Part shown: positions 7,084 through 7,559 of the stretch, one piece after another
Layout of the letters: every line of letters begins with the position of its first letter
How positions within the stretch are numbered: position 1 is the stretch's first letter
Assembly (NCBI GenBank): GCA_963575745.1
Contig: CAUYUJ010000178.1
Location: 1 to 64,000 of the forward strand
Reading direction: 5' to 3'
DNA: 64,000 bases
Source of the DNA: Prorocentrum cordatum
Taxonomy: Eukaryota
Made by a program: the position numbers and the translations under genes
The notes under the pieces: generated by a model
Seen by the model: only the letters and a program-made list of their open reading frames with translations
What the model was told of the DNA's origin: nothing
Database searches by the model: none

Positions 7084-7120
7084 TCCGTAGCCATTTTGGC
7101 TCAAGCCATTTTGGCTCAAG
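7084..7120 (+). other. Genomic dinoflagellate spliced leader (22 nt) followed by a 15-nt relict spliced leader
   Basis: TCCGTAGCCATTTTGGCTCAAG (7084-7105) is an exact match to DinoSL DCCGTAGCCATTTTGGCTCAAG. It is immediately followed by CCATTTTGGCTCAAG (7106-7120). Confidence 0.97.
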
Positions 7121-7202
7121 TCTCGCGGCCGCCGATTCTTGCGCCCCCGGGGCGCAAACCCTGCGCCCGCTCGGTGCGGCAACGCCACACCCGCGGGGCC
7201 CG

Positions 7203-7559
7203 ATGGCGTCTGTCTCCGAGAAGTTCGACGCCTCGGGCGGATTCAGTGGCAAGGGCGACGGTCGCGCCAAGGTGCACATCCGCATGCAGCAGCGCAACGG
7301 CCGGAAGTCTTGGACGACGGTCCAGGGATTCCCAGAGCAGGTGCAGCTCCCGAAGACAGGCAGGGTTCTGCCCGTGAATTTCGAGAAGATCCTGCAGCAC
7401 CTCAAGAAGACGTTCAAAACCAACGGCACGCTCATCTATGACTCGGAGCACGGCACCATCATACAGCTGCAGGGTGACATCCGCAAAGAGGTTGCCGAGT
7501 TTCTGGTCGGAGCCACAGCGCTGATATCGAAAGACCAGGTGATGATCCACGGCTCCTGA
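7203..7559 (+). CDS. SUI1: Eukaryotic translation initiation factor 1 (eIF1/SUI1), intronless retrocopy, 118 aa
   Basis: VHIRMQQRNGRKSWTTVQG...LKKTFKTNGT......GTIIQLQGDIR...FL...IHG is the SUI1 signature. The ORF is intact from ATG to TGA, has no introns, and has a spliced leader 82 nt upstream. Confidence 0.95.
   Translation: MASVSEKFDASGGFSGKGDGRAKVHIRMQQRNGRKSWTTVQGFPEQVQLPKTGRVLPVNFEKILQHLKKTFKTNGTLIYDSEHGTIIQLQGDIRKEVAEFLVGATALISKDQVMIHGS

What the first reader, a model, noticed from the sequence alone, without database searches (positions are those of the whole stretch)
7084..7559. Twice-recycled eIF1 retrogene with full and relict spliced leaders, nested in an intron of another gene
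Seen: a complete 22-nt DinoSL plus a perfect 15-nt relict, an 82-nt 5' UTR and an intact intronless eIF1 ORF. It lies on the same strand inside the 4956-9339 intron and abuts a truncated C1 MITE (7003-7083). Established: dinoflagellate mRNAs are reintegrated, and trans-splicing at the AG of CCGTAG leaves CCATTTTGGCTCAAG relicts. Inference: at least two rounds of retroposition, the last one recent. The embedded AG could allow eIF1 mRNA to be trans-spliced out of the host gene's pre-mRNA without its own promoter.
Basis: partly seen in the sequence, partly recalled or inferred. Interest (0 to 1): 0.72.

Follow-up and report, generated by a model that had tools for sequence, protein, structure and literature searches.

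The report
Recycled eIF1 retrocopy inside an intron
This is a reverse-transcribed copy of a dinoflagellate translation-factor (eIF1) messenger RNA, still carrying its spliced leader, that landed inside an intron of another gene; such copies are common in these algae, and this one looks silent or nearly so.

Summary
A perfect 22-nt DinoSL (7084-7105), a perfect 15-nt relict (7106-7120), an 82-nt 5' UTR and an intact 118-codon SUI1/eIF1 frame (7203-7559) are all there.

The element is larger than reported. It runs to about 8160 and ends in an A6 run. Its 3' UTR is interrupted by a 189-nt MITE (7775-7963) that eIF1 mRNA contigs of 4 of 4 runs skip.

The "truncated MITE" at 7003-7083 is the left part of a MITE that the retrocopy split. 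The right part resumes at 8175-8288. This argues for a real genomic insertion and against cDNA contamination.

The host intron 4956-9339 holds. It is supported by spliced RNA contigs and by a collinear 666-aa SP-RING homologue.

Two rounds of retroposition are supported, because mRNAs from other loci carry the leader's 3' end, the relict and this 5' UTR.

Expression of this copy is not supported. Its alleles at 7241 and 7255 occur in no contig, and it alone has changed the conserved D18 and R48.

This is a known kind of element, and the scan found similar ones elsewhere in this genome. Interest is low to moderate.

The parts
4833..4955 (+). Host-gene exon upstream of the intron (PINIT-like part of a PIAS-type SP-RING protein)
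   Evidence: RNA contigs of X1, X5 and X6 match 4829/4856-4959 with 0 other letters and then run on unlike the window. tblastn places P0079 aa 92-138 at 4818-4958 with 83% identity.
4956..9339 (+). Host intron (4384 nt, GT..AG) that contains the retrocopy. About 35% of it is copies of one MITE family.
   Evidence: P0079 residue 138 joins 4958 to 9340. The contig overhang GTGC at 4956-4959 equals 9340-9343. 12 MITE fragments lie in this interval.
7003..7083 (+). Left part of the MITE that the retrocopy split (reference positions 9-90)
   Evidence: blastn against the full copy at 8466-8660 (reverse complement), 78% identity. Alignment.
7084..7105 (+). Complete 22-nt dinoflagellate spliced leader encoded in DNA
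   Evidence: 0 mismatches, and 0 of 100 shuffles match.
7106..7120 (+). 15-nt relict leader, the part of the leader 3' of its internal AG
   Evidence: It is also present in mRNA contigs of X1, X5 and X6.
7121..7202 (+). 5' UTR, 82 nt, with no upstream ATG
   Evidence: Identical in the X1 and X5 contigs, with 1 difference (7156) in X6.
7203..7559 (+). Intact intronless eIF1/SUI1 reading frame, 118 aa plus stop
   Evidence: Best relative is 94% identical (P0078). The exact protein is not in the collection.
7560..7774 (+). 3' UTR, first part
   Evidence: Contigs with 0 other letters, for example X16 at 7540-7774 and X1 at 7597-7774.
7775..7963 (+). Secondary insertion of a 189-nt MITE of the same family into the retrocopy's 3' UTR
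   Evidence: The joint 7774->7964 appears in 4 of 4 runs, with ends AT..AA and a 2-nt ambiguity. It is 84% identical to the copy at 49890-50073 and 83% to the copy at 48229-48413.
7964..8154 (+). 3' UTR, second part
   Evidence: Contigs cover 7976-8077/8081. X1 depth is 1065 in bin 8035-8179 and falls to 13.8 in 8180-8324. The exact 3' end is inferred.
8155..8160 (+). A6 run, probable remnant of the poly(A) tail
   Evidence: Read. This is an inference.
8175..8288 (+). Right part of the split MITE (reference positions 82-193). By eye it may begin at about 8161.
   Evidence: blastn, 84% identity. Alignment.
9340..9462 (+). Host-gene exon downstream of the intron
   Evidence: tblastn places P0079 aa 138-178 here with 80% identity. 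Not covered by the read laying, which ended at 9030.
15318..15470 (+). SP-RING (zf-MIZ) domain of the host gene
   Evidence: Pfam PF02891 at E 9e-18, residues 73-123 of window:15102-16010. P0079 aa 203 onward maps from 15321.

Best explanation
A mature, trans-spliced eIF1 (SUI1) mRNA was reverse-transcribed from end to end and inserted into the genome. That mRNA itself came from a gene that already had one leader relict in its DNA.

The insertion went into the T-rich middle of a roughly 190-nt MITE. That MITE lies in a 4.4-kb intron of a PIAS-type SP-RING gene, on the same strand. The insert is 7084 to about 8160: leader, relict, 5' UTR, ORF, about 400 nt of 3' UTR and a short A run. Later, another MITE of the same family inserted into its 3' UTR at 7775-7963.

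Insertion was most likely carried out in trans by a LINE-type endonuclease and reverse transcriptase. This step is inferred.

Today the copy contributes little or nothing to the eIF1 mRNA pool, which comes from other loci. It is a young retrocopy that is silent or nearly silent and has begun to drift.

Shown: the anatomy, the split MITE, the host intron, and the mismatch between this copy and the abundant mRNAs. Inferred: the LINE machinery, the exact 3' end, and silence.
For: 1. The leader, relict, UTR and ORF are as described, and chance is excluded.

2. The flanks are the two parts of one MITE. 7003-7083 covers reference positions 9-90 and 8175-8288 covers 82-193, in the same orientation. 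An A6 run lies at 8155-8160.

3. mRNA contigs of 4 of 4 runs are collinear with 7093-7774 and then join 7774 to 7964. Their source gene therefore lacks the 189-nt MITE. The ends AT..AA are not splice sites.

4. Contigs of X1, X5 and X6 start at 7093-7095, so they hold the 3' end of a leader, the relict and the UTR. They carry 4-7 differences from the window. Other loci therefore already make leader-plus-relict eIF1 mRNA.

5. At 7241 and 7255, 100% of contig depth in all 4 runs differs from the window. 7255 and 7345 give G18 and Q48. All 14 aligned relatives have D at position 18, and 11 of the 14 have R at position 48. P0001, P0077, P0078, P0002 and P0038 all have D18 and R48.

6. The exact 118-aa protein is not among about 15 billion collected proteins.

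7. The host exon 4829-4959 appears in spliced contigs at depth 6.6-52.6, against hundreds to thousands for eIF1 contigs. P0079 maps collinearly across the intron and holds the SP-RING.

8. A stop-free LINE-like frame lies 11.5 kb downstream.
Against: - The ORF is intact, and the leader and relict are perfect. That could reflect selection rather than youth.
- Some contigs agree with the window at 7345 (X1 only), 7443, 7493 and 7510. They make up about 10% of X1 depth, and several unitigs have 0 mismatches. A transcript close to this copy exists for the 3' half.
- Logan contigs drop rare variants and are not phased. Only 32 of 823 pieces and 24 of 301 loose ends were listed. A rare transcript of this copy could have been missed.
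- The strain behind the runs may differ from the strain of the assembly.
- A direct alignment of the two flanks does not show a significant target-site duplication: 340 of 2000 shuffles score as high. The LINE-type mechanism therefore rests on the split MITE and the A run.
- No DNA run holding the junctions was available. The best share of words was 0.71.
Confidence: 0.7

Rival explanations
1. The nested copy is a working gene. In the first reader's idea, the host gene's pre-mRNA is cut at the AG inside the DNA-encoded leader, a new leader is trans-spliced on, and an eIF1 mRNA with two relicts results. Alternatively, it is transcribed from the leader's own TTT(G) motif, which has been proposed as a promoter.
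For: - The ORF is intact and on the same strand as an expressed host gene.
- The AG of the leader is preceded by a pyrimidine-rich run at 7074-7087, made of the MITE's T run plus the start of the leader (read).
- Nested genes are common and often expressed in another dinoflagellate: 25.2% of genes in Amphidinium carterae (PMC12584245, passages).
- The promoter-motif idea is in PMC6050394 (passages).
- Some contigs share the window's alleles in the 3' half.
Against: - No contig has the window's alleles at 7241 and 7255 in any of 4 runs.
- All listed contigs crossing 7774 lack the MITE.
- Host exon depth is about 100 times lower than eIF1 contig depth, so host-driven expression could only be a trace (depth is a poor measure).
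- This copy alone has G18 and Q48.
- The exact protein is not in the collection.
Confidence: 0.2
2. There was one round of retroposition only, and the second 15-nt unit arose later by local tandem duplication (slippage) in the DNA.
For: Two identical 15-nt units in tandem are also what a slippage event would leave.
Against: - The unit is exactly the part of the leader 3' of its internal AG, as the trans-splicing model predicts (PMC6050394 and PMC12014239, passages).
- mRNA contigs that differ from this copy at 4-7 places already hold the leader's 3' end plus the relict plus this UTR. The arrangement therefore predates this copy.
Confidence: 0.05
3. This is an assembly artefact or cDNA contamination, that is, an mRNA sequence wrongly joined into the scaffold.
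For: No DNA run holding the junctions could be laid. The best share of words was 0.71, about the mRNA part alone.
Against: - The two flanks are complementary parts of one MITE.
- The copy holds a 189-nt MITE that the mRNAs lack.
- It has private substitutions.
- A cDNA contaminant would show none of these features.
Confidence: 0.03
4. It is a spliced-leader RNA gene, the donor of the leader, rather than a retrocopy.
For: A complete 22-nt leader is encoded in the DNA.
Against: The leader is followed by CC and the relict, not by a GT donor and an intron with an Sm site. A protein-coding mRNA follows collinearly. No Rfam family reaches its threshold anywhere in the window.
Confidence: 0.01

Closest known systems
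Dinoflagellate 'recycled' retrogenes with relict spliced leaders. Sources: Slamovits & Keeling 2008 (recalled, and as described in PMC6050394); Song et al. 2017, PMC5585692; PMC12014239.
   Same: - A DNA-encoded DinoSL followed by the 15-nt relict, upstream of an intronless coding sequence.
- The relict lies 83-97 nt before the ATG, inside the -50 to -100 zone named in PMC6050394.
- Leader plus one relict in DNA corresponds to the minority class of transcripts with two or more relicts (5% in PMC12014239).
   Different: - Nothing differs in kind.
- Here the insertion site can be read: a split MITE and an A run. The passages I saw in these papers do not describe insertion sites. A term search of PMC5585692 found 0 occurrences of 'target site' and 'polyA'.
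- This copy appears unexpressed, whereas the literature stresses a high survival rate.
Nested genes in dinoflagellate introns (Amphidinium carterae, PMC12584245)
   Same: A small gene lies inside a long intron of a multi-exon host gene.
   Different: That paper reports nested genes as mostly expressed, on average 2.07 times the host. Here no copy-specific transcript was seen. The passages found contain 0 occurrences of 'retrogene' or 'relic'.
LINE-mediated processed pseudogenes of mammals (recalled textbook knowledge)
   Same: A full-length mRNA copy with no introns and an A run at the 3' end, inserted at a T-rich site and drifting in sequence.
   Different: The target-site duplication is not demonstrable here. 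The tail is only 6 A. The 5' end is complete to the first base of the leader.
Resolution of polycistronic or intronic genes by leader trans-splicing (nematodes, kinetoplastids; reviewed in PMC3795323, search listing only)
   Different: No evidence here that it operates on this copy.

Membership tests
DinoSL-relict retrogene | DNA-encoded DinoSL or relict directly upstream of a protein-coding sequence | tested here: met
   22/22 and 15/15 matches at 7084-7120, with the ORF from 7203.
DinoSL-relict retrogene | The relict begins right after the internal AG of the leader (15-nt form) | tested here: met
   7106-7120 equals leader positions 8-22.
DinoSL-relict retrogene | Collinear with the mature mRNA, with no introns | tested here: met
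   mRNA contigs are collinear over 7093-7774 and 7964-8081. The only break is the later MITE. The intron content of the parent is unknown.
DinoSL-relict retrogene | Parent with fewer relicts exists | tested here: inconclusive
   mRNAs with the leader's 3' end, the relict and this UTR come from other loci. The parental DNA could not be searched because no genome is held.
DinoSL-relict retrogene | Insertion marks: poly(A) remnant and target-site duplication | tested here: inconclusive
   An A6 run lies at 8155-8160. The flanks overlap by 9 reference positions. The direct flank alignment is not significant, with 340 of 2000 shuffles scoring as high.
Functional (expressed) retrogene | Transcripts with copy-specific alleles | tested here: not met
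   No contig depth carries the window's letters at 7241 and 7255 in any of 4 runs, and the MITE is absent from contigs crossing 7774. Contigs can miss rare transcripts.
eIF1/SUI1 | SUI1 domain above the Pfam threshold and conserved core residues | tested here: met
   PF01253 at 68.9 bits against 25.5. 40 invariant columns are kept. D18 and R48 are changed only in this copy.
Nested (intronic) gene | Host exons on both sides belong to one transcript | tested here: met
   P0079 aa 92-138 map to 4818-4958 and aa 138-178 to 9340-9462. Spliced contigs end at 4955-4959. The acceptor at 9340 was not covered by reads.
Spliced-leader RNA gene | GT donor immediately after the 22-nt exon | tested here: not met
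   CC follows at 7106-7107. No Rfam match.

The most novel reading that the evidence does not exclude
The nested copy is expressed at a low level without a promoter of its own. The host SP-RING pre-mRNA is trans-spliced at the AG inside the DNA-encoded leader. A pyrimidine run contributed by the split MITE would aid this. The product would be an eIF1 mRNA with two relicts, and the host's regulation would be coupled to a variant translation-start-site factor (G18, Q48).
Probability: 0.1. Interest if true: 0.6.

Novelty: new member of a known kind. Interest (0 to 1): 0.3.

Why it matters
It gives one cleanly readable example of how a dinoflagellate retrocopy gets into the genome. The mRNA was copied in full, leader included. 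It was inserted into a MITE whose two parts still flank it, and a later MITE insertion gives a relative date. This supports a LINE-type insertion mechanism, which the papers I read only presume. It is also a caution: an intact, leader-tagged ORF in an expressed gene's intron need not be expressed. Counts of 'surviving' retrogenes based on intact ORFs and relicts may therefore include silent copies.

Tried and rejected
- Whole-genome search for the parent locus: no genome is held for this window.
- Earlier notes of the scan by place and by sequence: nothing for this window, the retrocopy, the MITE or the LINE-like ORF.
- Metagenome contigs: 10 loci encode relatives, the best at 76% identity. 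0 of 10 hold the 15-nt relict, so they do not help with the parent or the mRNA 3' end.
- Direct alignment of the two flanks for a target-site duplication: score 14, reached by 340 of 2000 shuffles. Not significant, so the duplication is not claimed.
- Pfam on the host exon frames 4713-5006 and 9246-9584: no PINIT match at E <= 0.01. The exons were placed through the homologue P0079 instead.
- Another eIF1 copy in the window: none by blastn.
The stretch given to read laying ended at 9030.
- LINE-like ORF: Pfam found nothing even at E <= 10. PDB phmmer gave only low-complexity matches. The word-based homologue search found none.
- Rfam: no family reaches its threshold in the window.
- bioRxiv supplements and the supplements of the cited papers were not read. 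They may list retrogene insertion sites or eIF1 among retrogenes.

Full report
**What is in the sequence**

Position 7084 starts a perfect 22-nt dinoflagellate spliced leader, ending at 7105. It is followed directly by a perfect copy of the leader's last 15 nt (7106-7120). Next come 82 nt without an ATG (7121-7202), then an ATG at 7203 and a stop at 7557-7559.

The 21-nt leader core has no match in 100 dinucleotide-preserving shuffles of the window, even at 3 mismatches. The 15-mer occurs only at these two adjacent places in 64 kb. The 118-aa product matches Pfam SUI1 (PF01253) at E 5.3e-19.

The window has 58.6% G+C. The nearest proteins come from dinoflagellate transcriptomes. One is a gene model that its source names Prorocentrum cordatum. 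I infer a dinoflagellate of that general kind.

**The element is larger than the finding**

No whole genome is held for the window, so I used public runs. The best holders have only 0.71 of the sampled words of 7003-7860. That is about the mRNA part alone, and no DNA run with the flanks was served.

I laid Logan contigs of four runs from four studies (X1, X6, X5, X16) on 4700-9030 at 90% likeness or better. Only X16 is on record as RNA. X1, X5 and X6 contain contigs that leave the window exactly at exon borders, so they hold spliced RNA.

Contigs cover 7093-7774. In 4 of 4 runs they then join 7774 to 7964, skipping 189 nt (depths 761.6, 54.3, 275.2 and 8.5). They continue to 8077/8081. X1 depth stays at 1065 in bin 8035-8179 and falls to 13.8 in 8180-8324.

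The skipped piece has ends AT..AA, with 2 nt of ambiguity, so it is not a spliceosomal intron. It is a complete copy of the MITE family that fills this intron. It is 84% identical to the copy at 49890-50073 and 83% to the copy at 48229-48413.

The mRNA's 3' UTR is therefore 7560-7774 plus 7964 to about 8154. A MITE entered this copy after retroposition.

**The insertion site**

The repeat at 7003-7083 belongs to a family of about 190 nt with terminal inverted repeats. blastn with one full copy (8466-8660, reverse complement) gives 37 hits in the window, 12 of them inside the intron, covering about 35% of it.

7003-7083 matches reference positions 9-90. 8175-8288 matches positions 82-193, in the same orientation. 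Between them lie the retrocopy and, at 8155-8160, an A6 run. The retrocopy therefore split one MITE at its T-rich centre.

The 9 overlapping reference positions hint at a target-site duplication. A direct alignment of the two flanks is no better than 340 of 2000 shuffles, so I do not claim one.

Three features argue for a real genomic insertion and against cDNA contamination or misjoining:
- the split MITE;
- the private MITE in the 3' UTR;
- the private substitutions described below.

**The host gene**

RNA contigs of X1, X5 and X6 match 4829/4856-4959 with no differences and then run on unlike the window. They are 717, 1367 and 1299 nt long, at depths 6.6, 52.6 and 26.1.

A zf-MIZ/SP-RING domain (PF02891, E 9e-18) lies at 15318-15470 on the same strand. 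A 666-aa transcript-derived homologue with that domain (P0079) maps collinearly on the + strand:

| P0079 residues | Window position |
|---|---|
| 20-64 | 793-927 |
| 55-96 | 926-1051 |
| 92-138 | 4818-4958 |
| 138-178 | 9340-9462 |
| 162-203 | 11333-11458 |
| 203 onward | from 15321 |

Residue 138 bridges 4955 and 9340. The intron 4956-9339 (GT..AG) therefore stands, with the retrocopy inside it on the same strand. The acceptor itself was not covered by reads.

**Two rounds of retroposition**

Contigs of X1 (7095-7327), X5 (7093-7390) and X6 (7094-7390) begin inside the first leader. They run through the relict into the UTR and carry 4, 6 and 7 differences from the window.

mRNAs from other loci therefore already carry the 3' end of a leader, the relict and this very UTR. 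A parental gene with one relict in its DNA would produce exactly that. This fits the published model (PMC6050394 and PMC12014239, passages) and argues against a local 15-nt slippage in this copy.

The contigs cannot tell one relict from two, because the units are identical.

**Is this copy expressed?**

At 7241 and 7255, all contig depth in all four runs differs from the window. At 7247, 7262, 7328 and 7345 most of it does.

The seven differences at 7241, 7247, 7262, 7328, 7391, 7412 and 7493 are synonymous. Four change the protein, written here as window residue, position, then the residue in the main mRNA (my reading):

| Position | Change |
|---|---|
| 7255 | G18D |
| 7345 | Q48R |
| 7443 | S81A |
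| 7510 | G103V |

All 14 aligned relatives have D at position 18, and 11 of the 14 have R at position 48. The close relatives P0001, P0077, P0078, P0002 and P0038 have both. G18 and Q48 are therefore private, derived changes of this copy at conserved places.

The exact protein is not among about 15 billion collected proteins. The nearest, P0078, is 94% identical. Every listed contig that crosses 7774 lacks this copy's MITE.

Against silence:
- About 10% of X1 depth keeps the window's letters at 7345, 7443, 7493 and 7510.
- Several unitigs are identical to the window (7388-7473, 7540-7774, 7597-7774, 7976-8077).
- Contigs are unphased and drop rare variants.
- Only 32 of 823 pieces were listed.
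- The strains may differ.

The host exon's depth is roughly a hundredfold below that of the eIF1 contigs. Any host-driven expression would therefore be a trace that contigs could not show.

My reading is that the abundant eIF1 mRNAs come from elsewhere and this copy is silent or nearly so.

**Comparison with what is known**

- Leader-tagged retrogenes are common in dinoflagellates. They make up about 22-23% of genes in two Symbiodiniaceae genomes (PMC6050394, passages). In transcripts, 95% of retrogenes have one relict and 5% have two or more. 477 retrogenes were counted in Prorocentrum minimum (PMC12014239, passages).
- Nested genes make up 25.2% of genes in Amphidinium carterae (PMC12584245, passages).
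- Long introns rich in inverted-repeat elements are reported for P. cordatum (PMC10666404, passages).
- The scan itself has noted twice-recycled retrogenes and leader-capped LINEs elsewhere in this genome.
- A role of LINEs is only presumed in PMC5585692 (passage). My term search of that paper found no mention of target sites or poly(A).

This is a new member of a known kind. Its added value is a readable insertion site and a relative chronology.

**A possible source of the machinery**

A stop-free frame of 1196 codons lies at 19621-23208 (+), with an ATG at 20226.
- It has no Pfam match, even at E <= 10.
- It has 1218 relatives at E <= 0.001 in the representative library.
- ESM-Atlas features point to endonuclease plus reverse-transcriptase clusters, with a score of 0.95.
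- 2 of 10 relatives give sub-threshold RVT_1 matches.
- A 15-sequence profile touches an R2 retrotransposon protein at E 0.0025.
- Invariant DH and DD pairs sit where an AP-endonuclease and RT motif C would be.

It is probably a divergent LINE. It has no leader at its 5' end in this window. Nothing ties it specifically to this insertion.

Noticed in passing
window 19621-23208 (+), with upstream repeats at about 19300-19900 and a further frame at 23516-24802: A stop-free frame of 1196 codons (ATG at 20226) with no Pfam match. It has 1218 distant relatives. Atlas features, weak RVT_1 matches in relatives and an R2 match point to a divergent, possibly intact LINE. Tandem monomers of about 70-95 nt lie upstream, and a weak C2H2 finger lies downstream. 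It sits in a later intron of the same SP-RING gene.
   Followed up: partly
window 7211-7604: The retrocopy looks mosaic against the unphased mRNA unitigs. The 5' half is closest to one mRNA type (4-7 differences). A second X1 type (depth 718) differs at 14 of 128 places over 7217-7344 and has another 5' UTR. Contigs of similar depth are identical to the window from about 7345 on. This could mean several paralogues, gene conversion or template switching. It cannot be told from contigs.
   Followed up: no
window 4956-9339 and elsewhere (37 blastn hits): A MITE family of about 190 nt, with terminal inverted repeats and an internal small hairpin around a T6 run, makes up about 35% of this intron. 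It was still mobile after the retrocopy arrived. It may belong to the inverted-repeat 'introner' elements reported for high-GC dinoflagellate genomes.
   Followed up: partly
window 9051-9301 and 9568-9787: Two long (GGA)n tracts flank the host exon at 9340-9462 or so. A perfect 131-nt tandem duplication lies at 9940-10202.
   Followed up: no
window 39711-43287; 12656-14738; 11504-12104: Very long trinucleotide tracts: (ACT)n of 3.6 kb (37-39% G+C, GC skew about -0.65), (TCC)n of 2 kb and (CCT)n of 0.6 kb. All lie on the same strand as the host gene.
   Followed up: no
window 37179-38218: A 90-nt satellite with 11.6 copies. Its unit holds a 12-nt stretch resembling the core of the spliced leader. 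No Rfam match. It is probably a coincidence.
   Followed up: no
P0038 (protein): A public gene model that its source names Prorocentrum cordatum matches the eIF1 family for about 86 residues. It then departs from all relatives for about 30 residues before rejoining at the C-terminus. This looks like a frame or splice error in that model.
   Followed up: no
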